From positions 28,476 to 92,475 of the forward strand of contig JAOUMJ010000004.1 of NCBI GenBank assembly GCA_029881495.1: 64,000 nt of DNA, given 5' to 3'. The notes under the pieces are model-generated. The model ran no database searches and was not told the DNA's origin. It saw only the letters and a list, made by a program, of their open reading frames with translations. This document shows, one piece after another, positions 4,486 through 27,820 of this stretch (position 1 is its first letter; the number at the start of each line of letters is the position of its first letter). The DNA comes from Nitrospinota bacterium (lineage in GTDB: Bacteria; Nitrospinota_A; UBA7883; JACRGQ01). Position numbers and translations under genes: made by a program.

Positions 4486-6069
4486 ATGTCTTTGCCTTTG
4501 AATTTTGGTATTCCGTATCACACGCTCGTAACCGCCGTAATCATCGCCTTGTCCACGGCTCTTCTGGCGGTACTGTATCAGAAGTTCTTCAGGAAAAAGG
4601 GGATAAACGATTATCCCGACAACTGGCATATGCCGCACCGGCAGAACCTTCATTTCACCGGCAGGGAAGAGCAGATATTGGCTCTCCATGCCTTGCTCCA
4701 CGCTTCCGTTAAGGTCGTGATCATCGGGATGAAGTCCGAGCATGTTTCGGGGGGTATAGGCAAGAGCGAGCTCGCCATTGAGTTCGCATACAGGTGCCGT
4801 GACGAGTATTCCCTGATATGGTGGATTGACGCCGAAACGATATTCTCCATCGAAACCGCTTACATGATGATTGCCAGGAATCTTGGCATCCTGAAAAAGA
4901 ACGAGAGAGATCAAAACAGCATCTCCGCCGCCGTGAAGGATTGGCTCTCCATGAACGGAGAATGGCTCCTTGTTTTCGACAACATGATGAATGAAGAGGA
5001 CCTGCTCCCGTACATCCCCTCGGAAGTGAAGGGGAGGATACTTGTCACCACCCCAAAAAGCGACTGGAAAGAGAGCGTTGCCGCAAGGTTTTCTCTCGAC
5101 GTCTTTACCCCGAAAGAGGCCGTGGATTTTCTTCTGGAAAGGGAAGGGAACACATCGGAGGCGAGAGAGGCGGAAGAGCTATCAAAGGAGACCGGTTTTC
5201 TCCCGCTCGCGCTGGAGCAGGCTTGCGCGCATATTAAATATGAAAAGATATCCATCGCCCAATATCTGGATTCGTTCAGGACAAGAAGGGTCGAGATATT
5301 AATGTCCGGCAGTCCGGCTTCGCCAAATGGTGTGGTCGAGACGGCGTGCGACCTCTCTTTTTCCAAATTGCATGAGGAGGCGAAACAGCTTCTGTTCCTC
5401 TGCGCGTTCCTCCACCCGGAGGATATCCAGTTTGAAATGATAAAGGACGGCGCGGAACATCTCCCTGAACCGCTGAGGTCGGCGGCATACGACATACTGA
5501 GGCTTAGGACCGCCGCCGCAAGCCTCACCTCATACTCCCTCCTGTATTATGAGGAAAACATGATCATCATTCATCGTCTCATGCAGAAAGTGATACGGAA
5601 TCGGATGGACGCGGAAACGAGGAAAATATTCGCGGGGGCCGCGGTGGCGATAGTCGACAAAGCTTTCACCTACGGAGAATACAAGCAGGAAACATGGGAG
5701 CATTCCGACCGCCTTATCGCTCAGGCGTTAACGGCAACGAGCCACGCGGTAGAGGAGGAGGAGGCGCTTGGAACGGCGATAGACCTGATAAATAACACCG
5801 GTCTTTATTTCCAGCAGACGTCGAGATGCCCTGCCGCAAGAGAGCGTCTTGAACTTGGGCTTGCGCTCTCCGGAAAAGTTTACGGCCCCGATAATGCCGA
5901 TGTCGCGGTAATGCACGACAACCTCGCCGAAGTTCTGATGAAACTCCGCGATTTCGAGAACGCGAAAAAACATTTTCAGCGCGCTCTGGAGATAGGTATC
6001 AAGGTTTACGGAGAGGATCACCCCACCACGAACCTCTACCGTGAGAACGTGGAATCGCTCACAAGCTGA
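4486..6069 (+). CDS. membrane-anchored NB-ARC/STAND NTPase with C-terminal TPR repeats
   Basis: N-terminal TM helix; P-loop GGIGKS; Walker B LLVFDN; ILVTT motif; GFLPLAL (GLPLAL-type) motif; C-terminal TPR-like repeats (NLAEVLMKLRDFENAKKHFQRALEI). Confidence 0.7.
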   Translation: MSLPLNFGIPYHTLVTAVIIALSTALLAVLYQKFFRKKGINDYPDNWHMPHRQNLHFTGREEQILALHALLHASVKVVIIGMKSEHVSGGIGKSELAIEFAYRCRDEYSLIWWIDAETIFSIETAYMMIARNLGILKKNERDQNSISAAVKDWLSMNGEWLLVFDNMMNEEDLLPYIPSEVKGRILVTTPKSDWKESVAARFSLDVFTPKEAVDFLLEREGNTSEAREAEELSKETGFLPLALEQACAHIKYEKISIAQYLDSFRTRRVEILMSGSPASPNGVVETACDLSFSKLHEEAKQLLFLCAFLHPEDIQFEMIKDGAEHLPEPLRSAAYDILRLRTAAASLTSYSLLYYEENMIIIHRLMQKVIRNRMDAETRKIFAGAAVAIVDKAFTYGEYKQETWEHSDRLIAQALTATSHAVEEEEALGTAIDLINNTGLYFQQTSRCPAARERLELGLALSGKVYGPDNADVAVMHDNLAEVLMKLRDFENAKKHFQRALEIGIKVYGEDHPTTNLYRENVESLTS

Positions 6070-6772: not shown

Positions 6773-7579
6773 TTGAGCGCACTGCATTTCGAATCTGCCG
6801 GTTTCGGCGAACCGATAATTTTCATCCACGGCTGGGGTGTGAGTTCGGCGGTTTGGAAAGAGGAGGCCGACTACTTCTCGAAGAGGTTCCGCGCAGTGAC
6901 GGTAGATCTACCGGGACACGGAAAGTCGGCGCCGGTCGACGTAGAGCTGACCATTAAGCTCTGCGCGGAGCTGTTAAAGGAGCTAATGAAAAACGAGGGG
7001 CTGGAAGGCGCGCACCTTGTCGGGTGGTCGCTTGGCGCGGAGGTTGCCGCGCGTACGGCGATGATCTCCGGAGGCAGATTGGTCCGCTCACTCGTATCGG
7101 TCGGAGGAACGCCGTGCTATGTCGCTCCGACGCAGAAGGACGAGTGGGGTATGCCTGAGGGGAAAGCAAAATATTTCCAGCGACAGCTTGAGCGCGATTT
7201 CTCGGTGAGCCTTTCGATGTTCATACACACATTCTTTGAGGCGGAGAAGGATATTTCAGCCGAGCGGGCGGCGTTCATCAAATCGGTTTTTTTCGGCGAA
7301 GATTTTCCGCCGGACCAAAGGTCTGCCATTGACCTCTTAAAAAGTCTCTATGACGAGGATCTGCGCGGGGAATTGAAGGCCTCTCCTCTCACATTGCCTC
7401 TCTTGGTATGCCATGGCGACCGTGATATGATTGTCCCGATTGGAGCGGCCGAACAATGGAGCGCTCTCCTTTCGCAGGTGAAGATCGTGAAATTTGAAAA
7501 TTGCGGGCACGCCCCGTTCCTTACAAACAGCGAGCTATTTCGGGAAACCGTTGAAAATTTCATAACGGCATTAGGATGA
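6773..7579 (+). CDS. bioH: alpha/beta hydrolase, probable pimeloyl-ACP methyl ester esterase
   Basis: IIFIHGWG and GWSLGA (GxSxG nucleophile elbow) motifs; sits directly upstream of bioC and bioD/bioA. TTG start; stop overlaps bioC ATG. Confidence 0.6.
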   Translation: MSALHFESAGFGEPIIFIHGWGVSSAVWKEEADYFSKRFRAVTVDLPGHGKSAPVDVELTIKLCAELLKELMKNEGLEGAHLVGWSLGAEVAARTAMISGGRLVRSLVSVGGTPCYVAPTQKDEWGMPEGKAKYFQRQLERDFSVSLSMFIHTFFEAEKDISAERAAFIKSVFFGEDFPPDQRSAIDLLKSLYDEDLRGELKASPLTLPLLVCHGDRDMIVPIGAAEQWSALLSQVKIVKFENCGHAPFLTNSELFRETVENFITALG

Positions 7580-8352
7580 CCAATACCGACAAGATAAAAC
7601 GGGCCTTCGGGAGGAGCGCCGGAAGCTACGAAAGATTCGGCACCTTGCAGCGCGAGGTATCCGCGCGCCTCGTGCGGGAATTCACTCCGTTTGATGGCTC
7701 CCCGCAACGCGCTCTCGACATCGGATGCGGCACAGGGTTCACTTCGACCGATATGAAGAAGCGTTGGCCCACGGCTGACATTCATCCGCTCGACCTCGCT
7801 TTGCCGATGGCGAAACGTACTCACGCGGCGGGCTTCATAAAAAGTGTCGCCGGCGACGCATCATCCCTCCCTTACGCGGAGGCTCTCTTTGATGTAGCGG
7901 TATCTTCACTCGCACTGCAGTGGGGGAGCGATTATGAAAGAATATTTTCCGAAGTCTCCCGTACGCTGAAGCCGGGGGGACTCTTTTCGTTCAGCGCCCT
8001 TCTCCCCGGAACGCTGAGGGAGCTTCGAGGCGCTTACGATTCGGCTAGCAGGGAGTGCACCGGCAAGGGGGCGAATTTCCCCTCCTTTGCTTCGATAGAG
8101 GAAATGACTGCGCCTCTTGAAACCGGGGGATTCCGCAATTTGTCGATACATGCCGAGAGCGTGGTGAAGAGCTACTCCACAGTTGAAGAGATGATGCGGA
8201 CATTGAAAGGTATAGGAGCTACAAATCCGGCAAGACCGGAAAATCCTCCGAGGCGTGACGTGCTTGCGCGGACCATGGAATTTTATCCCGGGCGCAACGG
8301 CCATGTGGAGGCGACATATGAAATCTCCTACATCTCCTGCGTGAAGGGGTAG
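7576..8352 (+). CDS. bioC: malonyl-ACP O-methyltransferase
   Basis: SAM-binding motif LDIGCGTGF; N-terminal FGRSAGSYERFGTLQREV typical of BioC; biotin gene context. Confidence 0.7.
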   Translation: MTNTDKIKRAFGRSAGSYERFGTLQREVSARLVREFTPFDGSPQRALDIGCGTGFTSTDMKKRWPTADIHPLDLALPMAKRTHAAGFIKSVAGDASSLPYAEALFDVAVSSLALQWGSDYERIFSEVSRTLKPGGLFSFSALLPGTLRELRGAYDSASRECTGKGANFPSFASIEEMTAPLETGGFRNLSIHAESVVKSYSTVEEMMRTLKGIGATNPARPENPPRRDVLARTMEFYPGRNGHVEATYEISYISCVKG

Positions 8353-8356: not shown

Positions 8357-10480
8357 ATGGATGTAAATGCTCGCGCCGGATATTTCGTCACAGGTACAGG
8401 CACAGGTGTAGGGAAGACCGTCGCGGCGGGAGCCGTCGCGTACCTTTTGAAAAAAGCGGGATACTCAACAGGGGTGATGAAACCTGTACAGACCGGGGCG
8501 AAGAGCGTAAAGGGGAAACTGGTATCGGAGGATTACGAATTTCTCCGCGCGGTAGCCGATACGGACGATCCTTATGAAACGGCCGTTCCGGCAATATTGA
8601 AAACTCCGCTCTCCCCGTATCACGCATCCCTTGCTGAAAGGGAGAAGGTGGATGTGGCCCATCTCGCGATCAGTTTCCAGAAGATGAAAGAGCGGTACGA
8701 GGTCGTAGTGGTCGAAGGGGCGGGGGGGTTGATGGTTCCGCTCACGGAAAATCTTTTCTGGCACCACTTCATCAAGATGATAGACCTTCCGTTGATAGTG
8801 GTGACAGGCGCGGAGCTTGGAATGATCCATCAGACCCTCTCCACGATCCTTTCTGCGGAGATGTATGGGCTGGAGATAGCCGGGATAATGATAATGGAGA
8901 CGAAGAAAAAGAATAATCCCGAGCCGGATATCAAGTGGCTCGAAAAAACTTCCGGCTATCCGGTGCTCGGAGTCCTCCCTCACACCTCTTCGGTTGCGGG
9001 GGCGAAGGTGAAGAAAAAGGCCTTCCACTCGCACGTTGAAAAACATATCAAGGCAAAACCTTTCGTCGATTATATCGAAAGGAAGGGGTGCGAAGCGGAG
9101 TGGAAACGGCTGAACGAAGCGGATCACAAATATGTATGGCACCCCTTTACCCAGATGGCGGATTGGGTGAAGGAGGAGACGCTTGTCATCGAATCTGCGA
9201 GCGGAATGAAGCTGAAGAGTATAACGGGGGAAGAGTATTACGACGGGCATTCCTCTTACTGGGTGAACGTGCATGGGCACGGCAATCCAGAACTTTCAAG
9301 AACGCTTGCCCGTGAAACTGCAAAGCTCGATCACTCCACATTCCTCGGATTGAGCAACAGGCCGGCGATTGATCTTGCTGAAAAGCTTGTGGAGATTACG
9401 CCAAAAGGTTTGAGCAAGGTATTCTTTTCCGATAACGGCTCCACCGCGGTGGAAGTCGGCATGAAGATGGCCGTGCAGTATTTCCGCCAGAGGGAGAAGG
9501 GGAAGAGCCGGAAGAAAAGGAAGTTCATCGCGCTTGGCGAGGCTTATCATGGCGATACGCTCGGCGCGGTTGCCGTAGGTGGAGTTGAGATATACAGAAA
9601 TATCTTCGGCCCGCTCCTTGCCGACGTGGTATTCACACCTTCGCCATACTGCTATCGGTGCCCATTGAAGAAGTTTCCGTCCGACTGTTCTCTTGCGTGC
9701 GCCGCGGAGATGGAGAAGTTGATAGTGGAGAACCACGAAGATATCGCGGCATTTGTTATAGAACCGATAGTCCAAGGGCCGGGGGGGATAATCGTGGCCC
9801 CTTCGGGCTATCTGAAAAGGGTGCGGGAGCTATGCACGAAATACGACATACTTATGCTTGCCGACGAGGTTGCCGTAGGGTTTGGCCGTACTGGAAAGAT
9901 GTTCGCCTGCGAACATGAAGAGGTTGAGCCGGATCTGATGGCGCTCTCAAAAAGCCTCGGTGCGGGACTTGTCCCGATAGCGGCGACGATGGCGACCGAT
10001 GAGATTTACGAAGCTTTTCTCGGGAAGTGGGAGGAGCAGAAGACGTTTTTTCACGGTCACACATTCACCGCCCACCCCCCGGCGTGCGCAGTCGCCCTGC
10101 AATCGCTGAATTTATACAGGAAGCAGGGGATTATCAGGCAGGTCGAGACGAAAAGCCAGGCTCTTGCCGATTCGCTTGTGAGGTTCGAGAACCTCCCGCA
10201 TGTAGGGGATATCCGGCAGAAGGGGATGATAGCCGGGATCGAACTCGTAAAGAACCGTGAAACAAAAGAACGTTTTGAGATAGCGGTTCGTGCGGGTAAC
10301 ATGGTCTCAAAGGAAGCGAGGAGGAACGGGCTGATAGTGCGCCCCCTGGGTGATACTCTGGTGCTCTTTCCGATCCTTTCCGTCAGTGAAGGCGATTTGA
10401 GAAAAATGACGGATATACTTTACAATTCGATCGCGGCTGTTACAGGTTCGTTCGAAAAGAACGAACCGTTTGTGAAATAG
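8357..10480 (+). CDS. bifunctional dethiobiotin synthetase / adenosylmethionine-8-amino-7-oxononanoate aminotransferase (BioD-BioA fusion)
   Basis: N-terminal ~230 aa BioD with P-loop GTGTGVGKT; C-terminal ~460 aa class-III aminotransferase with WHPFTQM, DEVAVGFGRTGKMFA and PLP-lysine region LSKSLGAG in one uninterrupted frame. Confidence 0.85.
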   Translation: MDVNARAGYFVTGTGTGVGKTVAAGAVAYLLKKAGYSTGVMKPVQTGAKSVKGKLVSEDYEFLRAVADTDDPYETAVPAILKTPLSPYHASLAEREKVDVAHLAISFQKMKERYEVVVVEGAGGLMVPLTENLFWHHFIKMIDLPLIVVTGAELGMIHQTLSTILSAEMYGLEIAGIMIMETKKKNNPEPDIKWLEKTSGYPVLGVLPHTSSVAGAKVKKKAFHSHVEKHIKAKPFVDYIERKGCEAEWKRLNEADHKYVWHPFTQMADWVKEETLVIESASGMKLKSITGEEYYDGHSSYWVNVHGHGNPELSRTLARETAKLDHSTFLGLSNRPAIDLAEKLVEITPKGLSKVFFSDNGSTAVEVGMKMAVQYFRQREKGKSRKKRKFIALGEAYHGDTLGAVAVGGVEIYRNIFGPLLADVVFTPSPYCYRCPLKKFPSDCSLACAAEMEKLIVENHEDIAAFVIEPIVQGPGGIIVAPSGYLKRVRELCTKYDILMLADEVAVGFGRTGKMFACEHEEVEPDLMALSKSLGAGLVPIAATMATDEIYEAFLGKWEEQKTFFHGHTFTAHPPACAVALQSLNLYRKQGIIRQVETKSQALADSLVRFENLPHVGDIRQKGMIAGIELVKNRETKERFEIAVRAGNMVSKEARRNGLIVRPLGDTLVLFPILSVSEGDLRKMTDILYNSIAAVTGSFEKNEPFVK

Positions 10481-10495: not shown

Positions 10496-11944
10496 ATGTT
10501 AAAAAAATATTGGGAGACGGCAGGAACATTGGAGACATCCGAGAGCAAGTTTCATGACGAGTGTGCCATTTTCGGCATTTACAGGCACCCCGAAGCGGCG
10601 AACGTAACATACCTCGGCCTTTACGCGCAGCAGCACCGCGGGCAGGAGAGCTCCGGCATAGTATCATCTGACGGTTCCGACCATCATATACACCTCGGCA
10701 TGGGGCTTGTGGCAGATGTGTTCAAAAGGGAGATCATAGAAAAACTGCACGGGAATATGGCGATAGGGCACAACCGCTATTCAACCACCGGCGCGTCGAA
10801 ACTTATGAACGCACAGCCGCTGGCGATCGAATATTCCGCCGGATATCTTGCCATCGCGCACAACGGCAACCTTGTGAACGCGTCGACCGTCAGGGCGGAG
10901 CTTGAGGATATCGGCTCAATTTTCAGATCGACCATGGATACGGAGGTGATATCCCACCTTATCGCGAAGTCGAGCGAGAACACGCTCTTCAGCCGCGTGG
11001 TGGACGCACTGCATCAGGCTAGAGGGGCCTATTCGCTACTGGTTATGAACGAGGATGAAATGATAGCGGTGCGCGACCCGAAAGGGTTCAGACCGCTTGT
11101 GATGGGGAAGCTGGATGGCGCGACGGTCTTTGCATCGGAGACTTGCGCGTTCGACCTCATTGGAGCGACGTTCGAAAGGGATCTGAAACCGGGAGAGCTG
11201 GTTCATGTAACCTCCGACGGCGTGAGATCGCACTTTCCGTTCCCTCCAAAAAAGAGCTGTCAGTGCGTTTTCGAGTTCATATATTTCGCCAGGCCCGACA
11301 GCAATATCTTCGGCCGTTCAGTCCATGAGGTGAGAAAAAATTTCGGCAAGGCGCTTGCGCTTGAACTTCCGGTCGAAGCGGACATGGTGATCCCCGTGCC
11401 GGATTCCGGGGTCCCCGCCGCGATGGGTTACGCGGAAAAATCTGGCATCCCTTTCGATATGGGTTTGATAAGGAACCACTACATAGGGAGAACGTTCATC
11501 GAGCCGGAGAGCAGGATCAGGCATTTCGGCGTAAAGCTGAAACTGAATCCTATACGTTCTCTCATCGAAGGGAAAAAGGTCGTAGTCGTCGACGATTCCA
11601 TAGTGCGGGGCACCACATGCAAGAAAATAATCGGAATGGTGCGCTCAGCTGGCGCAAAAGAGGTTCATATGCGCATCAGTTCCCCCCCTACCACGCACCC
11701 CTGTTTTTACGGAATTGATACCCCGACAAAAGAGGAGCTTATCGCTTCGAACATGACCGTCGAGGAGACGAGAAAATTCATCGAGGCCGATTCGCTTGCC
11801 TACCTTACGCAGGAGAAGATGCTCTCCATATTCGGCGATGAGGCGGTCGATTTCTGCACGGCATGTTTCGACGGAAACTATCCGATAAAACGGTTCGATA
11901 TGGATATCGTTCAGGCCGAGCTTTTCGACTCAATAAGAAAATAG
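10496..11944 (+). CDS. purF: amidophosphoribosyltransferase
   Basis: N-terminal propeptide then CAIFGIY nucleophile Cys motif; C-terminal PRTase domain (VVVVDDSIVRGTT) and Cys cluster. Confidence 0.92.
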   Translation: MLKKYWETAGTLETSESKFHDECAIFGIYRHPEAANVTYLGLYAQQHRGQESSGIVSSDGSDHHIHLGMGLVADVFKREIIEKLHGNMAIGHNRYSTTGASKLMNAQPLAIEYSAGYLAIAHNGNLVNASTVRAELEDIGSIFRSTMDTEVISHLIAKSSENTLFSRVVDALHQARGAYSLLVMNEDEMIAVRDPKGFRPLVMGKLDGATVFASETCAFDLIGATFERDLKPGELVHVTSDGVRSHFPFPPKKSCQCVFEFIYFARPDSNIFGRSVHEVRKNFGKALALELPVEADMVIPVPDSGVPAAMGYAEKSGIPFDMGLIRNHYIGRTFIEPESRIRHFGVKLKLNPIRSLIEGKKVVVVDDSIVRGTTCKKIIGMVRSAGAKEVHMRISSPPTTHPCFYGIDTPTKEELIASNMTVEETRKFIEADSLAYLTQEKMLSIFGDEAVDFCTACFDGNYPIKRFDMDIVQAELFDSIRK

Positions 11945-13477: not shown

Positions 13478-13752
13478 TTTGGAACTCCTCCCGGTTTATG
13501 TAAGTTGAATTATGGTAATTTACCCTTGCCTTGAGGAAGTGTCAAATTAATTAAAAAAGTTCATTGAATTGCCATGAGCTATTTAAACATCTGAAAGTGA
13601 AGCGTTTTTGGAGATATCTGGAAATGTGCCTAAGGAAATAATGTTATGTATGATAACAGGTAGAATTGAGTAGCGGCTCTGGTTTGACCAGTGAACAGTA
13701 AACGCTGAATATATTGTTGAATGTTCAGCAACATTTCAGTAATATCCCAAAG

Positions 13753-14361
13753 GTGGAAACCAACGAAGATATCAAGGGTAAAATTCTCGAGGCGGCGATG
13801 GCGAGGTTTATCCATTACGGTTTTCATAAAACTACAATGGCGGAAATTGCCAAGGATTGCGGCATGTCAGCTGCGAACCTCTACCGGTTTTTCCAGAACA
13901 AGGCCGAGATAATCGTCACACTTGCGCTGAATCATTTTGAGGTGACATGGGAGAAGATGGAGGCGATCGTTGGCAACCGTACCCTTGCTTCAGCGGAAAA
14001 ACTTGAAAGCTTCTTTGTTCATCTCTTCAGATGCAACCGCGATCTGTTGCGCGAAAAGCCGAATATTTCAGAGGTGGTCGAGTTCTTCCTTAATGAACGC
14101 CCGGACATCGTAAAGGAGATGGTTTCCCGCGAAATCGTTACGCTGGAAAAAATTCTCGTAGATGGAAATGATTCGGGCGAATTCGCCATTGAGGATACCG
14201 CGGAAACCGCCAGGAATTTCAGGATGGCGTTTACTCCGTTTATCGTCACGCCGTTCCTTCTTCATATTATGGATAACAAGGTCATCGACCATGGCGACCT
14301 GGAAACGAGGCTGAAGAGTCTGCTGAAGCTCCTTTTGAAAGGTATATCCGCGTCGAATTAA
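13753..14361 (+). CDS. TetR/AcrR family transcriptional regulator
   Basis: N-terminal HTH region ILEAAMARFIHYGFHKTTMAEIAKDCGMSAANLYRFFQNK; GTG at 13753 with aaagg RBS; upstream of efflux genes. ORF track start is 13714. Confidence 0.8.
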   Translation: METNEDIKGKILEAAMARFIHYGFHKTTMAEIAKDCGMSAANLYRFFQNKAEIIVTLALNHFEVTWEKMEAIVGNRTLASAEKLESFFVHLFRCNRDLLREKPNISEVVEFFLNERPDIVKEMVSREIVTLEKILVDGNDSGEFAIEDTAETARNFRMAFTPFIVTPFLLHIMDNKVIDHGDLETRLKSLLKLLLKGISASN

Positions 14362-14403
14362 TAGATCGGCAAAAACCGAATTGGCTTAAAAGGTGTATTG
14401 AAA

Positions 14404-15936
14404 ATGATTAGTACATTCAGGAACGGAAAATATATTCTCTTTGCGGCCCCCTTGTTCGCTGTCGCGGTCGGATTCCTCGGAACCGCTGAATCGGCAAAGG
14501 GGGCGGGAGAGAGGATCATCTCTTCAGCCAGAGATATCAGGAATATTATCGGGAGCAACAATTACGATGTAAAGATCCTAGGCGAGCAGGTAAAGCGCGC
14601 GTCGGCTGTCGTGGAAGGGATCGAAGGGGCCTACTTCCCGATGCTTTCGCTCGACACCAGCATCATGGACGACAGAAAACAGCCGCTGAGCAATTTTCAG
14701 CCTGCGAGGGTGGAGAACACGCACTGGGGCGCGACGCTTATTCAGAGAACACCGATGGGGATCAATTTCTCGGCAGGGGTAACGAACGACACGGCTAAAC
14801 TTTACCAGTCCGACCCTCCAAACGATTTTCTTCCATATCCGGCAACGTTCAACCAGCCGGTGGTCTTCCTGAAGATGGAGATGGACATTCTTCAGGATCT
14901 CATGGGCTTTGTGAGCTTCAAGGAGTGGGATCAGTACCGGATAGACGAAGAGGTGTCGAAGATGCAGGTCGAACTTATAAAGCACAAGCTGTTCACCAGC
15001 AGTTCGGCGCTTCTCTGGAATACCAGGGAGATGATGGAGATGAAGTCGATCATCGAGGAGATGGTGACGAGGTTTGAAAAACTTGAAAAGGATGTTGATG
15101 CCAAGGTGCGCAAGAGGATTGCCGAGCCTGGGGACATCTACAAGCTCAAAGCGCTCGTCGCCCAGAGGAAGGCGGACGTTGTGGCGCTAGAGAGGACAGT
15201 GCGGGAGATAGAAAAATCGATCGCCGAAATTCTTTCTGTGCAGGAGGGGATTCGCTTCATGCCTGACAGGACGCTTGCGTCGCTGGAAAAGGGGATAGAC
15301 GCTTGCGAACAGGATATTCTCAGCCGGAAGGAGATGGATACCGCCTGGAGCAGGGAGTTCGACGTTCTTGAAAAAAATATCAGGCGCGGAGAGCTTGAAA
15401 AGGATATCAGGTACAGGAAGGCGCTCCCCGACCTGAAACTCGTTGGCTCCTACGCGAAGACCGGCACCGATTCAACCTTCGGAGACGCGTTTTCAAATAT
15501 CGTGGACCAGGACAAGCCGCAGGTATATGTCGGTTTGAATTTTTCCTGGCCGCTTTCCTCCAGCGTTGCGAAATCAAGGCGGGTATTCGGCGATACCGCG
15601 CTCGCAACCCAGGGGATGACATACGGCAAATTCTACGAAGGGAGCAGGGTTTTTCACGAATCGACTATCAGGAAAATCGGGCATCTGAGGGAAGAGGGGA
15701 AACTTTCAGATGAAGCTGTCGGATACGGCAGAAAACAGATAGACGATCTGCACAAGAGGTACAGGCAGGGGCGGGTAAGCATGTTCGAGCTTGTACAGGA
15801 GGAGAGCTCCGTGCTTCAAAGCGAGTTGACCCGCAAGAGGGTATGGGTTGAGAGGATAAATAATATCTACCAGTACCTTGGCCGCTTCGACAGGCTTAGT
15901 TGCGCCGATAGCGATCTTACGGCTGGAAGAGATTAA
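14404..15936 (+). CDS. TolC-family outer membrane efflux protein (putative)
   Basis: Signal peptide, long coiled-coil segments, ~510 aa; stop 3 nt before RND pump start. Family call is by architecture, not a diagnostic motif. Confidence 0.55.
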   Translation: MISTFRNGKYILFAAPLFAVAVGFLGTAESAKGAGERIISSARDIRNIIGSNNYDVKILGEQVKRASAVVEGIEGAYFPMLSLDTSIMDDRKQPLSNFQPARVENTHWGATLIQRTPMGINFSAGVTNDTAKLYQSDPPNDFLPYPATFNQPVVFLKMEMDILQDLMGFVSFKEWDQYRIDEEVSKMQVELIKHKLFTSSSALLWNTREMMEMKSIIEEMVTRFEKLEKDVDAKVRKRIAEPGDIYKLKALVAQRKADVVALERTVREIEKSIAEILSVQEGIRFMPDRTLASLEKGIDACEQDILSRKEMDTAWSREFDVLEKNIRRGELEKDIRYRKALPDLKLVGSYAKTGTDSTFGDAFSNIVDQDKPQVYVGLNFSWPLSSSVAKSRRVFGDTALATQGMTYGKFYEGSRVFHESTIRKIGHLREEGKLSDEAVGYGRKQIDDLHKRYRQGRVSMFELVQEESSVLQSELTRKRVWVERINNIYQYLGRFDRLSCADSDLTAGRD

Positions 15937-15939
15937 CCG

Positions 15940-18900
15940 ATGATCACATATTTCATAAAAAATCCGAAGGTCGTTGCTCTCATAACTCTTGCGATCGTGA
16001 TTGGGGGGATTATCAGTCTGTTGGCGATGAGGCGGGAGGCTTTCCCCAACGTCGATTTTGCCATGGCGACGATCACAACATTCTATCCGGGTGCCACGCC
16101 GGAAGATGTTGAGATACAGGTAACAAAAAAAATAGAAGACGAGTTGAGGGGCATAGAGGGGATAAAGCAGACGCGCTCCATCAGCCAGGAGGGGTATTCC
16201 GAGATAACCATTGTCGTAGATATAGATAATGTGAGCTCAAGGGAAGTGCTGGACGAAGTACAGCGAACCACCGACAGGGTGGTCGACCTCCCGGCTGAAC
16301 TCCCCGATCCCCCTCATTTCAACGAGATCAAGACGAAGCATTTCCCGGTTCTGGAGGTTTCGGTTCTCGGCGATGTTGACGAGGAGAAGTTAAGAAAGGT
16401 TGCCGATCAGCTGGAAGATGTTTTCGACATGAACAGCGGTGTGGCCGCGGTAAACAAGATCGGGTACAGGGAGCGCGAATACAGGATCTATATAGATCCC
16501 GTAAAAATGGGGAGATATCACGTAAGTTTCAACGAGGTGATACGGGCGATCGGCGCGAGCAATGTCGATACTCCCGGCGGCATATTCGAAAGCCGCCCGT
16601 TCAAGAAATCGGTCAGAACAGTAGGGTCGCTCAAGGAAGCCGAGATGTTTCTCGACGTTGTGGTTCGCACGAATCTTTCGGGCCAGGTCATACGCGTGCG
16701 TGATATCGCCACAGTGGACGATACGTATGAAGATCCGAGGGTGGTGGCGAAGACCAACGGCAAGCCGAGCATAATCCTGGTTGCCATGAAAAAGGAGCAT
16801 ACCGACATACTGAAATTGACCAAAGAGCTCAAGGAAGCGATTGCCGAATTCAGGAAGGGATTGCCGGAAGGGGTTGGCGTAATTGTCAGCAACGACGAGT
16901 CGGAAAGGACAAGGACACGCCTCGACATCATAATTTCCAATTCGATCATCGGATTTTTTCTCATGCTCATTGCCCTTATCGTATTCCTTGATCTGAGGAA
17001 CGCGCTTGTAACGTCTCTGGCGGCGCCAATCGTTATCCTTGTCACGCTCATTCTCATGAGCTTTTTAGGAATTACGTTCAACATGATCTCAATGCTGGCG
17101 GTGATAATCGCGCTCGGCATGTTCGTGGATAACAGCATCGTCATATCAGAAAATATTTTCAGGCTGAAGCAGACAGGATTGTCGATGGAAGAGGCGGCGA
17201 TGAAGGGGACGATAGCGATAGCCGCTCCCATAACGGCGACGGTACTAACTACTATCGCGGCGTTTGTTCCGATGATGGTTACCTCGGGCGTAATGGGGCA
17301 GTTCATTATTGCCATTCCGATAGTGGTCACATGCTCACTCCTTGCCTCCCTGTTCGATTCCTTTTTCCTCCTCCCGGCAAGGATAATCGCGCTGGACAGG
17401 GAAGCGGTCATAAAGGAATCACGGTGGTTCGCCTGGTGGAGACATCTGTTTGAAAGTTTCGTAAGGTTCTTCATCAGATACAAGTGGTCTTCGATCGCAC
17501 TTGCGAATCTTCTCCTTATTGGCGCACTGATATTTGCCGTGAAAAAGATAGACTTCATTCTCTTTCCGCCGGAAGGGGTCGACAGGTTTGCTGTCAAATA
17601 TCTTGCCCACCCCGGAACTCCCATTGAGGATGTGAACAGGGGGATAGAGAAAGTTGAAAACGCTCTGATGAGTCTTCCCTCCGATGAAGTGTACGCCATC
17701 ACTACGAGAACCGGCGTCCAGCAGATGGGCCTTGGTGACCCTCTATCCAGGGTCGGGGACAACGTGGGGATGATACTCGTATACCTGACGCCGGAGAACG
17801 AACGGAAAAGAACCGCGGCGGAAATAATATCCTGGCTGAGGGAGAATGTAGATATCTACGAGCCGTTTGAAATGATCCAGTTCGAGACCCTGGCGATGGG
17901 CCCACCTGTAGGAAAGGCGGTTACGGTCTCTGTGCAGGGGGATGACCTCGAAAAGCTGAAGGAACTAGCCGGACAGATATGGAAGTTCCTTTCCGATATC
18001 GACGGCGTGACGGACATCGATCAGGATCTAAAGCCCGGCATAAGGCAGTTGCGCGTTGAGATAAATAAGGGTGTTCGCGAAGAGATAGGCCTTACCGTAG
18101 CAGAGATCGCGGCCGCTCTTAGAACCGCGCAGGAAGGGGTCATCGCTTCAAAGGTCAGGAAGTATGATGATGATATTGATGTCCGCGTCCTTTTTTCAAA
18201 GGAGGCGAGAGGGAGCATGACCTCGCTGGAAAACCTTCTCATATCGGATGTGAGGGGAAACCTCATCCCTCTTCATAAAGTTGCGAACATCAGGGAGGTG
18301 GAGGGGCCGGAGCCGCGACGGCATTTTGATTACAGGCGTTCCATCACTATTACCGCCGGTGTCGACACCGATAAGGTCACTTCGGTGGAGGTGAACGCCG
18401 CGCTGAGAAAGGCGTTCGCTTTCATCCCGGAGAAGAATCCAGGTTATGTGCTGAAATTCGGAGGCGAAGAAGAGAGCACGATGGAGTCGATGTCGAGCCT
18501 TGCGCGCGCGATGGTCTTTGCGATCATCGGGATATTCTCGATACTCGTGGCGCTGTTTGGCTCGTACGCTCTGCCGTTTTTGATAATGTTCTCCATCCCT
18601 TTGGGATTCGTAGGGGTAATAGTAGGGTTTGCGGCCCACGACAAGCCTTTCGGCTTTCTGGCGATTATCGGGATGATAGGTCTTTCCGGCGTTATCGTAA
18701 ATTCGGCGATAGTGCTAATCGCCTTCATTGAGGACATGAGGAAAAATACTAAATTAAGTCTCGAAGAGTGTCTCGTACAGAGCGCCGGCACAAGGCTCCG
18801 CCCGATACTGCTGACGACGTTCACGACGGTGCTCGCGCTTTTCCCGACCGCGTACGGGATAGGAGGATTCGATCCGATGCTAGTTCCGATGACGCTTGCC

Positions 18901-19038
18901 ATGGCTTGGGGTCTCCTCTTTGGAACTCTCCTCACGCTACTTGTAATACCGTGCGGATACGCAGTGATAGAAGATGTAATCCAGTTCTCTAATAGAGTGC
19001 GGGGTAAAAAAGGGGAAAAGCATCCGGTAAAAATATAA
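15940..19038 (+). CDS. RND efflux transporter permease (AcrB/CzcA-like)
   Basis: 1032 aa, 12-TM architecture with two large periplasmic loops; N-terminal FIKNPKVVALITLAIVIGGI typical of AcrB family. Confidence 0.9.
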   Translation: MITYFIKNPKVVALITLAIVIGGIISLLAMRREAFPNVDFAMATITTFYPGATPEDVEIQVTKKIEDELRGIEGIKQTRSISQEGYSEITIVVDIDNVSSREVLDEVQRTTDRVVDLPAELPDPPHFNEIKTKHFPVLEVSVLGDVDEEKLRKVADQLEDVFDMNSGVAAVNKIGYREREYRIYIDPVKMGRYHVSFNEVIRAIGASNVDTPGGIFESRPFKKSVRTVGSLKEAEMFLDVVVRTNLSGQVIRVRDIATVDDTYEDPRVVAKTNGKPSIILVAMKKEHTDILKLTKELKEAIAEFRKGLPEGVGVIVSNDESERTRTRLDIIISNSIIGFFLMLIALIVFLDLRNALVTSLAAPIVILVTLILMSFLGITFNMISMLAVIIALGMFVDNSIVISENIFRLKQTGLSMEEAAMKGTIAIAAPITATVLTTIAAFVPMMVTSGVMGQFIIAIPIVVTCSLLASLFDSFFLLPARIIALDREAVIKESRWFAWWRHLFESFVRFFIRYKWSSIALANLLLIGALIFAVKKIDFILFPPEGVDRFAVKYLAHPGTPIEDVNRGIEKVENALMSLPSDEVYAITTRTGVQQMGLGDPLSRVGDNVGMILVYLTPENERKRTAAEIISWLRENVDIYEPFEMIQFETLAMGPPVGKAVTVSVQGDDLEKLKELAGQIWKFLSDIDGVTDIDQDLKPGIRQLRVEINKGVREEIGLTVAEIAAALRTAQEGVIASKVRKYDDDIDVRVLFSKEARGSMTSLENLLISDVRGNLIPLHKVANIREVEGPEPRRHFDYRRSITITAGVDTDKVTSVEVNAALRKAFAFIPEKNPGYVLKFGGEEESTMESMSSLARAMVFAIIGIFSILVALFGSYALPFLIMFSIPLGFVGVIVGFAAHDKPFGFLAIIGMIGLSGVIVNSAIVLIAFIEDMRKNTKLSLEECLVQSAGTRLRPILLTTFTTVLALFPTAYGIGGFDPMLVPMTLAMAWGLLFGTLLTLLVIPCGYAVIEDVIQFSNRVRGKKGEKHPVKI

Positions 19039-19110
19039 TTTGAACTAGCGGCGCAATACACGCTTAATGGCGGTATGAGATCGACTTGACCATGTGAAGA
19101 GAGGATTCTG

Positions 19111-21408
19111 ATGGCGAAGCTCAATTTTGGTTCGAAACTAGCGCTTAAGGTAATAAAGTACCGTTTCCAGATCATCATACTCACCGTTCTTTCAGTAGCG
19201 GTCTCATCCGCCGGTCTTGCATATCTCACCTTCTCCAGCGACAGCAGGGCGTATTTCGGTCCCGATAATCCACAGCTAAAGGCTCTCGAAAAGCTGGAGA
19301 ATACATATTCTAGGGACGACTCCGTTCTCCTTGCGATTGCGCCGAAGGACGGTAACATCTTTTCCGCCAGGACACTTTCGATTATCGGCGAGATAACCGA
19401 TGAATTCTGGAAGCTCCCCTTCTCCAGCAGGGTGGAATCCCTCACCAACTACCAGCATACTTCGGCAGACGGCGACGAGCTTATAGTGGAGAACCTTGTA
19501 AAGGAGGCCGATGAACTGACGGGCGCTGACCTTGACCGCATAAGGGAGATCGCCGTAAACGAACCGTTCCTGAAGGATCGCCTTGTTTCTTCCAAAGGGA
19601 GCGTTGCCGGCGTCGTAGCTCTTTTCAGAATGCCGGAGAATAAGAACGAGGCGACAAAGGAGGTCGTTGGGAAAGTTCGTGCGTATGTGAAGGAGGTTAA
19701 AAAGAAATACCCCGACATGGAAATATACCTGGTCGGGAGCCTGATGGTGGATACCGCTTTCGCGGAAGCGGGGGAGGACGACATGAGGAGCCTCATCCCT
19801 ATCATGTTCGCGATAATGGTTTTCTTCATGTGGGTGATGCTAAGGTCGGTTACTGCAATGCTTGTCACCACGCTCGTAATTATTTTTTCGTCGGTCGTCT
19901 CCATGGGGATTGCGGGCTGGCTCGGAATCGTGCTTACCGCTCCGTCGGCGAATTCGCCTATAGTCATACTCACGCTTTCGATAGCGGATTCGATACATGT
20001 CCTCGTTACCATGCTGCAGGAGATACGAAAAGGGAGATCGCGCGAAGAGGCGATAGTGGAATCGATGCGCATAAACCTTTCTCCGGTGTTTCTGACCACC
20101 ATTACCACTTCGATAGGTTTTCTCAGCATGAACTTTTCGGATTCTCCCCCTTTCTGGGATCTCGGAAATATAGTATCGATCGGGGTGCTGGTAGCTTTTA
20201 TATATTCGGTTACGTTTCTCCCTGCGATGATGGCCATCCTCCCGATCAAGGTGGGAGAAGAGAAAACTTTCGGCCCGCCGATAATAGACCGGTTCGCCGA
20301 TTTTGTCGTATCCAAAAGTACGGCTCTTATGTGGGGTATGGCTCTTTTTATAATTTTTTCCGTATCGGGCATCTCCAGGATAGACGTGAACGATCTGTAC
20401 CTCGATTATTTCGGAAAGAAGTTCCAGTTCAGGAAGGATACCGATTTCATTGTGGCAAATCTCACCGGTGTAAGCATGGTCGAATACGACCTCTCGTCGG
20501 GTGAAGAGGGGGGGGTATCCTCTCCAGAATATCTTGACACTCTTGAGCGTTTCACTGTTTGGCTCCTTGCCCAGCCGGAAGTAAAACAGATAAGCGGATT
20601 CCATGACGTCATGAAGAGGCTGAACAAAAGCATGCATGGCGACGACCCCGCCTATTACAAGGTACCGGACAGGAGGGATCTTGCCGCGCAGTACCTCCTT
20701 CTGTACGAGATGTCGCTCCCGTTCGGGCTCGATATGAACAACATGATAAACGTCGACAAGTCCTCCACAAGGTTCAGGATATCGCTTATCGACATTTACA
20801 ACCGGGAGATACGGCAGTTCGAAAGGAGGGCGACCGCGTGGCTCGAAGAGAATGCTCCGCCGTCGATGCATGTTGACGGCACAGGGATGTCGATCATCTT
20901 CGCGCACATCACCGACAGGACTATCAACTCAATGTTCAGGGGTACCGCCTTCGCCCTCTTTCTTATATCTGGGCTACTCATACTCGCGTTCATGAATCTC
21001 CGCATAGGGTTGATAAGCCTCCTGCCGAACATAGTTCCGGCGTTGATGACATTCGGTCTATGGGGTTATACGGTGAGCCAGGTCGGTCTCGCCGCTTCGG
21101 TCATCGCGGCGCTCAGCCTCGGGATAGTGGTGGACGACACGATACACTTTCTCTCGAAATATCTTAGGGCAAGAAAGGAGCTCGGCCTAAGTCCAGAAAT
21201 GGCGGTGAGGTACTCCTTCCATACGGTCGGCAGGGCGCTTGTAATAACTTCAGTCATACTCGTTGCCGGATTCGGGATATTGACCCTCTCAAATTTCAAG
21301 GTGAATTCAAACATAGGCACCCTCACCGCGATAGCGATAGCGATAGCGCTCATAGTCGATTTTCTTTTCCTTCCCGCCCTTCTGCTTAAACTTGAAAAGA
21401 GAAGATGA
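19111..21408 (+). CDS. MMPL/SSD-type RND superfamily exporter (HpnN-like)
   Basis: 765 aa; two repeats each of a periplasmic domain followed by a 5-6 TM bundle, typical of MMPL exporters. Confidence 0.75.
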   Translation: MAKLNFGSKLALKVIKYRFQIIILTVLSVAVSSAGLAYLTFSSDSRAYFGPDNPQLKALEKLENTYSRDDSVLLAIAPKDGNIFSARTLSIIGEITDEFWKLPFSSRVESLTNYQHTSADGDELIVENLVKEADELTGADLDRIREIAVNEPFLKDRLVSSKGSVAGVVALFRMPENKNEATKEVVGKVRAYVKEVKKKYPDMEIYLVGSLMVDTAFAEAGEDDMRSLIPIMFAIMVFFMWVMLRSVTAMLVTTLVIIFSSVVSMGIAGWLGIVLTAPSANSPIVILTLSIADSIHVLVTMLQEIRKGRSREEAIVESMRINLSPVFLTTITTSIGFLSMNFSDSPPFWDLGNIVSIGVLVAFIYSVTFLPAMMAILPIKVGEEKTFGPPIIDRFADFVVSKSTALMWGMALFIIFSVSGISRIDVNDLYLDYFGKKFQFRKDTDFIVANLTGVSMVEYDLSSGEEGGVSSPEYLDTLERFTVWLLAQPEVKQISGFHDVMKRLNKSMHGDDPAYYKVPDRRDLAAQYLLLYEMSLPFGLDMNNMINVDKSSTRFRISLIDIYNREIRQFERRATAWLEENAPPSMHVDGTGMSIIFAHITDRTINSMFRGTAFALFLISGLLILAFMNLRIGLISLLPNIVPALMTFGLWGYTVSQVGLAASVIAALSLGIVVDDTIHFLSKYLRARKELGLSPEMAVRYSFHTVGRALVITSVILVAGFGILTLSNFKVNSNIGTLTAIAIAIALIVDFLFLPALLLKLEKRR

Positions 21409-22289: not shown

Positions 22290-22305
22290 GGGTGTGGGAG
22301 CGGGT

Positions 22306-27810: not shown

Positions 27811-27820
27811 ACCGCTCTCC

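What the first reader, a model, noticed from the sequence alone, without database searches (positions are those of the whole stretch)
8357..10480. Single-polypeptide BioD-BioA fusion in a bioH-bioC-bioDA block
Dethiobiotin synthetase (GTGTGVGKT P-loop) and the DAPA aminotransferase (PLP lysine in LSKSLGAG) are encoded in one 707-aa frame with no stop between them. The two enzymes catalyse consecutive steps, so the fusion could channel the intermediate. bioF and bioB are not in this window, so the pathway is split across the genome.
Basis: seen in the sequence. Interest (0 to 1): 0.4.

Follow-up and report, generated by a model that had tools for sequence, protein, structure and literature searches.

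The report
Bacterial fused BioD-BioA biotin enzyme
One real gene in this Nitrospinota genome joins two consecutive biotin-synthesis enzymes (dethiobiotin synthetase and DAPA aminotransferase) into a single protein; the same arrangement is well studied in plants and fungi and turns out to be common, though undescribed, in several uncultured bacterial phyla.

Summary
Window 8357..10480 (+) is one uninterrupted 707-aa ORF. Its N-terminal part passes NCBIfam's curated BioD cut-off (157 vs 83 bits). Its C-terminal part passes the BioA cut-off (511 vs 405 bits). All catalytic residues checked are present. It is not an assembly error: the identical protein is encoded in two other assemblies, and more than 100 full-length fused homologues (43-83% identity) exist. 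The fusion occurs in Nitrospinota, Omnitrophota, Planctomycetota, Lentisphaerota, Myxococcota and other lineages. It usually sits in the same hydrolase(BioH-like)-bioC-bioDA cassette; in Omnitrophota bioB-bioF lie directly upstream. An AlphaFold model (pLDDT 91.9, pTM 0.87) matches the Arabidopsis BIO3-BIO1 bifunctional enzyme over its whole length (TM 0.77). By sequence, however, the two parts are nearest to bacterial stand-alone enzymes (B. subtilis BioA, 48% identity; E. coli BioD), not to the plant protein, so the fusion probably arose independently. Reverse-order BioA-BioD fusions also exist. The most likely mechanism is a homodimeric bifunctional enzyme that passes DAPA from the aminotransferase site to the synthetase site. 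Channelling and the amino donor (SAM or lysine) remain untested. bioF and bioB are absent from the window. Verdict: a sound but ordinary finding, a new bacterial member of a known kind, of low to moderate interest.

The parts
6773..7579 (+). alpha/beta-hydrolase, probable pimeloyl-ACP methyl ester esterase (BioH-like), 268 aa, TTG start
   Evidence: The best NCBIfam hit is TIGR01738 bioH at 112.6 bits, below the cut-off of 207. Pfam finds Abhydrolase_1/6. The sequence carries HGWG, GWSLGA, GDRDMIVP and CGHAPF motifs that resemble the E. coli BioH oxyanion and Ser/Asp/His motifs (translation; the motif comparison is from my own knowledge). Its position directly upstream of bioC is conserved in 13 fused loci, and in L009 it lies between bioF and bioC.
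7576..8352 (+). bioC-like SAM-dependent methyltransferase (probable malonyl-ACP O-methyltransferase), 258 aa; overlaps the hydrolase gene by 4 nt
   Evidence: TIGR02072 BioC scores 174.1 bits, just below the cut-off of 184.95. Synteny is conserved.
8344..8349 (+). Shine-Dalgarno-like AAGGGG, 7 nt before the bioDA ATG and inside the end of bioC (suggests translational coupling)
   Evidence: Read directly from the sequence.
8357..10480 (+). bioDA: single 707-aa ORF encoding the dethiobiotin synthetase-DAPA aminotransferase fusion
8357..9007 (+). BioD (dethiobiotin synthetase) domain, residues 1-217
   Evidence: TIGR00347 scores 157.1 bits against a cut-off of 83.3. E. coli BioD 1dts scores 86 bits. 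The equivalents of E. coli T11, K15, T16, K37, D54 and E115 are T16, K20, T21, K42, D59 and E120. T16 is invariant in the 16-sequence alignment A1 and at least 90% conserved in A2; the other five are invariant in all 77 fusions of A2.
8393..8419 (+). P-loop GTGTGVGKT
9008..9133 (+). connecting segment, residues 218-259 (VKKKAFHSHVEKHIKAKPFVDYIERKGCEAEWKRLNEADHKY); predicted helical and ordered
   Evidence: helices 220-230, 234-240 and 245-259; pLDDT about 90-97. Its length varies among homologues.
9074..9076 (+). ATC codon used as the start of the 468-aa 'BioA' in the public NCBI annotation of the same genome (annotation artefact)
   Evidence: P0002 begins MERKGCEAEW and is 100% identical from there on. 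One search shows ATC at this position with no Shine-Dalgarno sequence upstream.
9134..10480 (+). BioA (7,8-diaminopelargonate aminotransferase) domain, residues 260-707, plus the stop codon
   Evidence: TIGR00508 scores 511 bits against a cut-off of 405. B. subtilis BioA 3dod/6wnn scores 475 bits, with TM 0.97 and 48% identity. The equivalents of E. coli Y144, D147, E211, D245, R253, K274 and R391 are Y397, D400, E469, D503, R511, K532 and R662.
9950..9952 (+). codon of the PLP-binding lysine K532
   Evidence: invariant
9644..9700 (+). four-cysteine motif PYCYRC-x8-C-x3-C (C432, C435, C444, C448) inside the BioA domain
   Evidence: Invariant in 77 of 77 fusions. Shared with M. jannaschii BioA 6zhk but not with B. 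subtilis BioA. Coordinates confirmed.

Best explanation
The gene encodes a bifunctional biotin-pathway enzyme. The C-terminal PLP-dependent aminotransferase (BioA) converts 8-amino-7-oxononanoate (KAPA) to 7,8-diaminopelargonate (DAPA). The N-terminal P-loop ATPase (BioD) then carboxylates DAPA with CO2 and closes the ureido ring with ATP to give dethiobiotin. Both stand-alone enzymes are homodimers, so the fusion most likely forms a homodimer like Arabidopsis BIO3-BIO1. That arrangement fixes a 1:1 stoichiometry and places the two active sites on one particle, so DAPA can pass between them without equilibrating with the cytosol. The gene is the last member of a tightly packed esterase(BioH-like)-bioC-bioDA cassette, so the genes for making the pimeloyl moiety and for the KAPA-to-dethiobiotin steps probably lie on one transcript. 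bioF and bioB are encoded elsewhere. The fusion most plausibly arose from an adjacent bioD-bioA gene pair through loss of the intervening stop codon. Shown here: one ORF, both domains intact and above family thresholds, conservation of the fusion and of the cassette, and a predicted two-domain fold like BIO3-BIO1. Inferred: enzymatic activities, the dimer, channelling, co-transcription and the origin by stop-codon loss.
For: A single ORF with a Shine-Dalgarno sequence. BioD and BioA equivalog models both score above their curated cut-offs. Catalytic residues of both enzymes are present and invariant, or at least 90% conserved, in 77 fusions. The identical protein occurs on two further assemblies. 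117 of the 120 best 90%-identity clusters carry both domains. About 59 of the 150 best 50%-identity clusters are fused in the BioD-BioA order. One-ORF fusions were verified in 20 genome loci from Nitrospinota, Omnitrophota, Planctomycetota, Anaeromyxobacteraceae and Subteraquimicrobiales. The hydrolase-bioC-bioDA order is conserved in 13 of them. L009 carries a complete bioB-bioF-hydrolase-bioC-bioDA operon, with bioB and bioF above their cut-offs. The AF2 model has pLDDT 91.9 and pTM 0.87 with an ordered helical connector. The only whole-chain PDB matches are Arabidopsis BIO3-BIO1 4a0g/4a0r/4a0f, at TMq 0.77-0.78 over about 790 columns. For that enzyme, homodimer formation and DAPA channelling are reported (Cobessi 2012, as summarised in PMC8518694). 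Geobacteraceae relatives have separate bioD then bioA genes whose open frames overlap by a few nucleotides (L071, L075), the kind of arrangement from which a fusion can arise.
Against: There are no experimental data for any bacterial member. The model is a monomer, and AlphaFold may have learnt the domain arrangement from 4a0g. Identity to the plant enzyme is only 22-23%, so channelling cannot simply be transferred. The upstream hydrolase and methyltransferase fall below the NCBIfam BioH and BioC cut-offs. No promoter, terminator or BirA operator was identified, so co-transcription is inferred from spacing alone. An internal translation start that also yields separate BioA cannot be excluded. 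The public annotation of this genome calls only a 468-aa BioA, although from an ATC codon without a Shine-Dalgarno sequence.
Confidence: 0.88

Rival explanations
1. The single frame is an artefact: a sequencing or assembly error removed a stop codon or frameshift between adjacent bioD and bioA genes.
For: The public NCBI annotation of the same genome lists only a 468-aa BioA. Relatives such as Geobacteraceae do have separate adjacent bioD and bioA genes.
Against: The identical 707-aa product is called on an ENA MEGAHIT contig and a Logan contig. More than 100 homologues from independent samples keep one frame, and 20 genome loci were verified as one ORF. The NCBI start is an ATC codon without a Shine-Dalgarno sequence and there is no in-frame stop upstream of it, so it is an annotation choice, not a sequence difference.
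Confidence: 0.01
2. The C-terminal part is a class-III aminotransferase with another substrate (for example an omega-transaminase), or the BioD part is a degenerate scaffold, so the protein is not a two-step biotin enzyme.
For: Many omega-transaminases score 210-250 bits against the C-terminal part. E. coli BioD residue E12 is a glycine here (G17).
Against: The TIGR00508 equivalog scores above its cut-off, with BioA structures far ahead of the rest (475 vs 250 bits or less). All BioA substrate and PLP residues are kept, including R662, the equivalent of R391. BioD scores above its equivalog cut-off with K20, T21, K42, D59 and E120 invariant. The context is a biotin operon that includes bioB and bioF in L009. 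The glycine at the E12 position is the family consensus, GTDTGVGKT.
Confidence: 0.03
3. The fusion gives co-expression and fixed stoichiometry only. DAPA is released and rebound, with no channelling, and the fusion is a selectively near-neutral consequence of stop-codon loss between overlapping genes.
For: There is almost no dedicated linker: the connector is the C-terminal helix of BioD plus the N-terminal helix of BioA. Both domain orders exist, as do BioF-BioA fusions, as expected if fusions of neighbouring genes arise easily. The NJ trees give no support for a single origin (0 of 100 bootstraps).
Against: The fusion has persisted across at least 59 clusters at 50% identity and across several phyla. 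The model shows confident, ordered inter-domain packing similar to the plant enzyme (pTM 0.87, TMq 0.77). Channelling is reported for the plant analogue.
Confidence: 0.3
4. The bacterial fusion and the plant/fungal BIO3-BIO1 (bioDA) share a single origin, through transfer between bacteria and eukaryotes.
For: The domain order is the same and the whole-chain fold match reaches TMq 0.77-0.78.
Against: The BioD part matches 4a0g at only 14 bits (E = 0.23), against 86 bits for E. coli BioD. 4a0g is absent from the 58 chains with E <= 1e-60 for the BioA part, whereas B. subtilis, E. coli and M. tuberculosis BioA are present. Overall identity is 22-23%. Fusion has demonstrably happened more than once, since reverse-order fusions exist.
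Confidence: 0.07

Closest known systems
Arabidopsis thaliana BIO3-BIO1 (At5g57590; PDB 4A0F/4A0G/4A0H/4A0R) and fungal BioDA (e.g. Aspergillus nidulans bioDA)
   Same: One polypeptide with an N-terminal dethiobiotin synthetase and a C-terminal DAPA aminotransferase. It gives the only whole-chain structural match (TMq 0.77-0.78). It catalyses the same two consecutive reactions. It is reported to be homodimeric with DAPA channelling (PMC8518694).
   Different: It is eukaryotic, mitochondrial and about 830 aa long with longer inserts. Identity is only 22-23%, and the BioD parts are not detectably similar by phmmer (E = 0.23). It uses SAM (PMC9309667), whereas the donor here is unknown. A common origin is not supported.
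Bacillus subtilis BioA (PDB 3DOD/3DU4/6WNN), lysine-dependent DAPA aminotransferase
   Same: It is the closest characterised relative of the C-terminal part: 475 bits, 46-48% identity, TM 0.96-0.97. It shares the WxPFTQM N-terminus, with F rather than the E. coli Y17.
   Different: It is a stand-alone 448-aa enzyme. It lacks the first two cysteines of the four-cysteine motif (PYVYRS versus PYCYRC). It uses L-lysine as amino donor (6WNN title; PMC11089781). Whether the fusion does the same is unknown.
Escherichia coli BioD (PDB 1DTS/1A82) and E. coli BioA (1QJ5 and others)
   Same: They share the catalytic residues. E. coli BioD is the best solved match for the N-terminal part (86 bits).
   Different: They are separate proteins encoded by separate genes. 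E. coli BioA is only about 36% identical in the alignment (31-32% in the Foldseek alignments). E. coli BioD has E12 where the fusion family has glycine.
Other bacterial biotin-gene fusions seen here: BioA-BioD in reverse order (P0127 Myxococcales, P0128, P0131) and BioF-BioA (P0148)
   Same: They fuse consecutive biotin enzymes around the same BioA subfamily.
   Different: The domain order or the fusion partner differs, so they are independent events.

Membership tests
BioA, 7,8-diaminopelargonate (8-amino-7-oxononanoate) aminotransferase (NCBIfam TIGR00508) | Score above the curated equivalog cut-off | tested here: met
   511 bits against a cut-off of 405, residues 260-692
BioA, 7,8-diaminopelargonate (8-amino-7-oxononanoate) aminotransferase (NCBIfam TIGR00508) | PLP lysine and the active-site residues of E. 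coli BioA (Y144, D147, E211, D245, R253, K274, R391) | tested here: met
   The equivalents are Y397, D400, E469, D503, R511, K532 and R662 (the E. coli sequence was recalled from memory, its length of 429 matches the PDB chains, and the residue names match the PDB mutant titles). All are invariant or at least 90% conserved in 77 fusions. Y17 is F264, as in B. subtilis.
BioA, 7,8-diaminopelargonate (8-amino-7-oxononanoate) aminotransferase (NCBIfam TIGR00508) | KAPA-to-DAPA activity and identity of the amino donor (SAM or L-lysine) | not testable with these tools
   The closest characterised homologue uses lysine, but the family name says SAM. No donor-specific residues are known to me.
BioD, ATP-dependent dethiobiotin synthetase (NCBIfam TIGR00347) | Score above the curated equivalog cut-off | tested here: met
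   157.1 bits against a cut-off of 83.3, residues 10-179
BioD, ATP-dependent dethiobiotin synthetase (NCBIfam TIGR00347) | P-loop and catalytic residues (E. coli T11, K15, T16, K37, D54, E115) | tested here: met
   The equivalents are T16, K20, T21, K42, D59 and E120. T16 is invariant in A1 and at least 90% conserved in A2; the other five are invariant in A2. E12 is G17, which is the consensus of the fused family.
Bifunctional DTBS-DAPA aminotransferase of plants and fungi (BIO3-BIO1 / BioDA) | Single polypeptide, DTBS N-terminal and DAPA aminotransferase C-terminal | tested here: met
Bifunctional DTBS-DAPA aminotransferase of plants and fungi (BIO3-BIO1 / BioDA) | Same overall two-domain fold and arrangement | tested here: met
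   The predicted model against 4a0g/4a0r gives TMq 0.77-0.78 and rmsd 5.8-6.0 over about 790 columns. This is a prediction, not a solved structure.
Bifunctional DTBS-DAPA aminotransferase of plants and fungi (BIO3-BIO1 / BioDA) | Common descent (sequence closer to the eukaryotic fusion than to unfused bacterial enzymes) | tested here: not met
   The BioD part scores 14 bits (E = 0.23) against 4a0g and 86 bits against E. coli BioD. For the BioA part, 4a0g is not among the 58 chains with E <= 1e-60. Identity is 22-23%.
Bifunctional DTBS-DAPA aminotransferase of plants and fungi (BIO3-BIO1 / BioDA) | Homodimer with channelling of DAPA | not testable with these tools
   Only a monomer could be modelled. 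Channelling needs kinetic experiments.
BioH, pimeloyl-ACP methyl ester esterase (TIGR01738), for the gene at 6773-7579 | Score above the curated equivalog cut-off | tested here: not met
   112.6 bits against a cut-off of 206.95. It is the best hit of 24. The L009 orthologue scores 142 bits.
BioH, pimeloyl-ACP methyl ester esterase (TIGR01738), for the gene at 6773-7579 | Ser-Asp-His hydrolase motifs and a position next to bioC in a bio operon | tested here: met
   GWSLGA, GDRDMIVP and CGHAPF are present in the translation. The gene is adjacent to bioC in 13 fused loci and lies between bioF and bioC in L009.
BioC, malonyl-ACP O-methyltransferase (TIGR02072), for the gene at 7576-8352 | Score above the curated equivalog cut-off | tested here: not met
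   174.1 bits against a cut-off of 184.95, a marginal miss. It is by far the best hit, and its context is conserved.

The most novel reading that the evidence does not exclude
Bacteria evolved BioD-BioA bifunctional enzymes independently of eukaryotes, and more than once, since both domain orders exist. The bacterial and eukaryotic forms converged on the same N-to-C order and the same domain arrangement as plant BIO3-BIO1. The enzyme travels as a BioH-like-bioC-bioDA cassette among Nitrospinota, Omnitrophota, Planctomycetota and other uncultured phyla. It may use lysine rather than SAM and may carry a Cys4 metal site in the aminotransferase domain. This would contradict the review-level statement that in bacteria the two enzymes are separate, and would provide a compact prokaryotic model for DAPA channelling.
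Probability: 0.5. Interest if true: 0.4.

Novelty: new member of a known kind. Interest (0 to 1): 0.27.

Why it matters
The finding matters in four ways. [quoted passage not shown] Here the fusion is the normal form of the enzyme in several poorly studied phyla, including Nitrospinota, a phylum that includes the main known marine nitrite oxidisers (PMC8026999). Second, annotation pipelines hide it. The NCBI record of this genome, and of a Lentisphaerae MAG, truncates the gene to 'BioA', so genome-based predictions of biotin prototrophy can wrongly score bioD as missing in these lineages. Third, a small, soluble-looking bacterial version would be a convenient system for testing substrate channelling and amino-donor choice, and could be a compact part for biotin pathway engineering, where the BioA step is limiting (PMC11089781). 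Fourth, none of this changes our understanding of the pathway: fusion of consecutive pathway enzymes is a familiar phenomenon, and this kind of fusion is already characterised structurally in plants.

Tried and rejected
- **Assembly error.** Rejected because the identical protein occurs in two other assemblies and many fused homologues exist.
- **L040 in-frame stop.** L040 seemed to show a fusion split by one in-frame stop, but the 'stop' is next to a run of N, which is a scaffold gap.
- **bioB and bioF in the window.** A motif scan and four Pfam scans found neither.
- **Regulatory elements near the bio block.** The promoter and terminator scan was not above shuffled expectation. The 71-nt smpB-hydrolase spacer shows no obvious BirA-type inverted repeat. 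The window has no Rfam family and no tRNA or tmRNA.
- **Single versus multiple origin of the fusion.** NJ trees of BioA, BioD and the concatenated domains, each with 100 bootstraps, never recovered all fused sequences as one clade (0 of 100). The deep nodes are unresolved, so the number of events within the BioD-BioA order stays open. No maximum-likelihood program was available.
- **Look-up of the NCBI 468-aa product.** It is not on record in the contig index.
- **Literature.** Searches with bioDA, BIO3-BIO1, gene fusion, Nitrospina plus biotin, and 6ZHK returned only fungal or plant fusions or nothing relevant. The key papers, Muralla 2008 and Cobessi 2012, are not held.
Full report
**1. Observation**

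Window 8357..10480 (+) is a single ORF of 707 aa with an ATG start. An AAGGGG Shine-Dalgarno-like element lies at 8344-8349, just before the stop codon (TAG, 8350-8352) of the preceding gene. Pfam finds AAA_26, the BioD-type P-loop domain, at residues 8-214 and Aminotran_3 at residues 269-689.

**2. Identity of the two parts**

- **C-terminal part.** It scores 511 bits on the NCBIfam equivalog model TIGR00508 (bioA), against a curated cut-off of 405.
- **N-terminal part.** The first 250 residues alone score 157 bits on TIGR00347 (bioD), against a cut-off of 83.
- **Solved structures for BioA.** The C-terminal part is closest to B. subtilis BioA (3dod/6wnn, 475 bits), then M. jannaschii BioA (6zhk, 398 bits). 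E. coli and M. tuberculosis BioA and assorted omega-transaminases follow at about 210-260 bits.
- **Solved structures for BioD.** The N-terminal part is closest to E. coli BioD (1dts, 86 bits).
- **Catalytic residues.** In pairwise alignments, E. coli BioA residues Y144, D147, E211, D245, R253, K274 and R391 map to Y397, D400, E469, D503, R511, K532 and R662. E. coli BioD residues T11, K15, T16, K37, D54 and E115 map to T16, K20, T21, K42, D59 and E120. Its length of 429 and its residue names agree with the PDB entries listed. These positions are invariant or at least 90% conserved in an alignment of 77 fused homologues.

**3. Not an artefact**

The exact 707-aa sequence is the product of a called gene on an ENA contig (ERZ27296367, 76 kb) and on a Logan contig (SRR7132271). 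Both have the same neighbours.

A search of 5.8 billion clustered proteins returned 120 best hits. Of these, 117 carry both Pfam domains in one protein of about 670-745 aa, at 43-83% identity over at least 96% of the query. Most are from Nitrospinota or Nitrospinae MAGs.

One hit, P0002, is 100% identical but only 468 aa long. It is NCBI's annotation of the same Nitrospinota MAG. It begins MERKGCEAEW, which corresponds to the ATC codon at window 9074-9076 read as Met. That codon has no Shine-Dalgarno sequence and no in-frame stop upstream of it. The source record therefore under-annotates the gene; the sequence itself does not differ.

**4. Distribution**

I scanned one genome per GTDB species with patterns from the alignment, then tested with my own ORF and HMM check whether both domains lie in one open frame. 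This gave true fusions in:

- Nitrospinota: L003, L005, L006, L007, L010, L017
- a 'Nitrospirae' MAG: L004
- Omnitrophota: L008, L009, L012, L014, L015, L020, L023, L026, L038
- Planctomycetia and Planctomycetales: L011, L016
- Subteraquimicrobiales: L019
- Anaeromyxobacteraceae: L024

. L040 looked like a fusion interrupted by a stop, but the interruption is a run of N.

Close unfused relatives have adjacent bioD then bioA genes (Geobacteraceae including cultured Geomonas, and Desulfitobacteriaceae) or bioA then bioD genes (Dehalococcoidia, Scalinduaceae).

An exhaustive phmmer search of 1.84 billion 50%-identity representatives listed the 150 best hits. About 59 of them are BioD-BioA fusions, with identity down to 31%. 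Three are reverse-order BioA-BioD fusions (P0127, P0128, P0131). One is a BioF-BioA fusion (P0148). One is a SAM hydroxide adenosyltransferase-BioA fusion (P0138). Cluster look-ups add Lentisphaeria, a Pseudomonadota MAG and Myxococcales. They also show a second case in which NCBI lists only a truncated 'BioA' (P0272 against P0271).

**5. Context**

- **In the window.** The gene order is smpB, an alpha/beta hydrolase (6773-7579), a methyltransferase (7576-8352, overlapping the hydrolase by 4 nt), bioDA, purF (starting 15 nt after bioDA), pdxJ and a Dabb-domain gene.
- **Upstream genes.** The hydrolase's best NCBIfam hit is BioH and the methyltransferase's is BioC. Both score below the curated cut-offs (112.6 vs 207; 174.1 vs 185).
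- **Conserved cassette.** phmmer with these two proteins finds the same hydrolase-bioC pair directly upstream of the fusion in 13 fused loci from three phyla.
- **Complete operon in Omnitrophota.** In locus L009 the order is bioB (402 bits vs cut-off 225), bioF (499 vs 426), hydrolase, bioC, bioDA. This supports the biotin role of every member of the cassette.
- **bioB and bioF in the window.** There is no bioB: no YNHNL motif anywhere and no CX3CX2C in a long ORF. There is no bioF among the ORFs scanned. L003, the nearest genome-collection relative, shows the same smpB-hydrolase-bioC-bioDA arrangement without bioB (bioF was not screened in these flanks).
- **Other elements.** I found no convincing promoter, terminator, BirA operator, riboswitch or tRNA nearby.

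**6. Structure and likely mechanism**

AlphaFold2 with the 77-sequence alignment gives a confident model, with mean pLDDT 91.9 and pTM 0.87. Residues 218-259, which connect the domains, are predicted as three helices with pLDDT about 90-97, so they are not a floppy linker. Alignments show that this connector corresponds to the C-terminal helix of BioD plus the N-terminal helix of BioA, and that its length varies between lineages.

In a Foldseek search of the PDB, the BioA part superposes on B. subtilis BioA at TM 0.96-0.97 and 46-48% identity. One of those entries, 6wnn, has the amino donor L-lysine bound. The only chains that cover the whole model are the Arabidopsis bifunctional enzyme BIO3-BIO1 (4a0g, 4a0r, 4a0f), at TMq 0.77-0.78, about 790 aligned columns, rmsd 5.8-6.0 and 22-23% identity. 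That enzyme is reported to be homodimeric and to channel DAPA from the BIO1 site to the BIO3 site (Cobessi et al. 2012, as summarised in PMC8518694).

The most likely mechanism is therefore a homodimeric bifunctional enzyme. BioA makes DAPA from KAPA, and BioD converts DAPA to dethiobiotin with CO2 and ATP on the same particle. Activity, dimer formation and channelling are inferences. The amino donor is open: the family name implies SAM, but the closest characterised homologue uses lysine.

**7. Relation to the known eukaryotic fusion**

The bacterial protein works like BIO3-BIO1 but is probably not its orthologue.

- The BioD part matches 4a0g at only 14 bits (E = 0.23), against 86 bits for E. 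coli BioD.
- 4a0g is not among the 58 PDB sequences with E <= 1e-60 for the BioA part.
- Both domain orders occur in bacteria, so fusion of these genes has happened at least twice.
- NJ trees with 100 bootstraps never recover all BioD-BioA fusions as one clade (0 of 100). They do support the window's own clade (window, L003, L004, L007, L010) at 98 of 100. The deep branches are unresolved, so the number of events is not settled.
- Cross-phylum pairs (L009 Omnitrophota with L011 Planctomycetia, 100%; L014 with L016, 97%) suggest either cassette transfer or binning errors.

**8. Novelty and verdict**

The kind of enzyme, a BioD-BioA bifunctional protein, is known and structurally characterised in plants, and is known genetically in fungi. 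Bacterial examples are already in sequence databases, and JGI names some of them 'transaminase/dethiobiotin synthase'. However, I found no paper in the held library that describes them. A 2022 review states that in bacteria the two enzymes are separate (PMC9309667), and a 2024 review of microbial biotin production does not mention a fusion.

This is a real, correctly interpreted feature. It is a new bacterial member of a known kind, with modest interest. Its main practical consequences are better annotation and auxotrophy prediction in Nitrospinota, Omnitrophota and Planctomycetota, and a convenient prokaryotic system for testing channelling.

Noticed in passing
window 9074-9076 (and P0002; P0271/P0272): The public NCBI annotation of this same genome calls only a 468-aa BioA that starts at an ATC codon inside the fusion. 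A Lentisphaerae MAG shows the same truncation (452 aa against the full 693 aa). Annotation pipelines therefore hide the BioD domain, which could make bioD look absent in pathway surveys.
   Followed up: partly
window 9644-9700 (residues 430-448): A four-cysteine motif, PYCYRC-x8-C-x3-C, in the BioA domain is invariant in all 77 aligned fusions. It is shared with M. jannaschii BioA (6zhk), but in B. subtilis BioA the first two cysteines are replaced (PYVYRS). It may be a structural metal site.
   Followed up: partly
proteins P0127, P0128, P0131, P0148, P0138: Other architectures are built on the same BioA subfamily. Three are reverse-order BioA-BioD fusions (one from Myxococcales). One is a BioF(partial)-BioA fusion. 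One is a SAM hydroxide adenosyltransferase (PF01887/PF20257)-BioA fusion; the last is intriguing because SAM can be BioA's amino donor.
   Followed up: partly
L009 vs L011; L014 vs L016: bioDA genes labelled Omnitrophota and Planctomycetia/Planctomycetales pair with 100% and 97% NJ bootstrap support. This indicates either horizontal transfer of the bio cassette or mislabelled bins.
   Followed up: no
window 13714-21408; L009 12201-14353; L003 13590-16682: A TetR regulator, an outer-membrane factor, an RND pump (1032 aa) and an MMPL-family protein follow the bio/purF/pdxJ block in the window. L009 has a TetR regulator and a TolC-like outer-membrane protein downstream of bioDA. L003 has a 1030-aa ORF downstream of bioDA that is RND-sized but was not scanned. 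This neighbourhood recurs and is unexplained.
   Followed up: no
window 4486-6069: A 527-aa protein with DUF7779 and C-terminal TPR repeats (a STAND-NTPase-like architecture) lies immediately upstream of smpB.
   Followed up: no
window 22294-23556 and 27218-28111: ORFs of 420 aa and 297 aa have no Pfam match at E <= 1e-5. The first follows an MMPL gene and a LolA-like gene. The second overlaps tatC on the opposite strand and may not be a real gene.
   Followed up: no
window 28633-30957, 39026-41296, 41715-46184: Three large hybrid sensor histidine kinases with multiple PAS domains lie within 18 kb. The largest is 1489 aa and has an N-terminal Tll0287-like domain.
   Followed up: no
L040 about 10718-10727: An apparent in-frame stop splitting a Planctomycetales bioDA lies next to a 10-N scaffold gap, so it is an assembly gap and not a real split gene.
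   Followed up: yes
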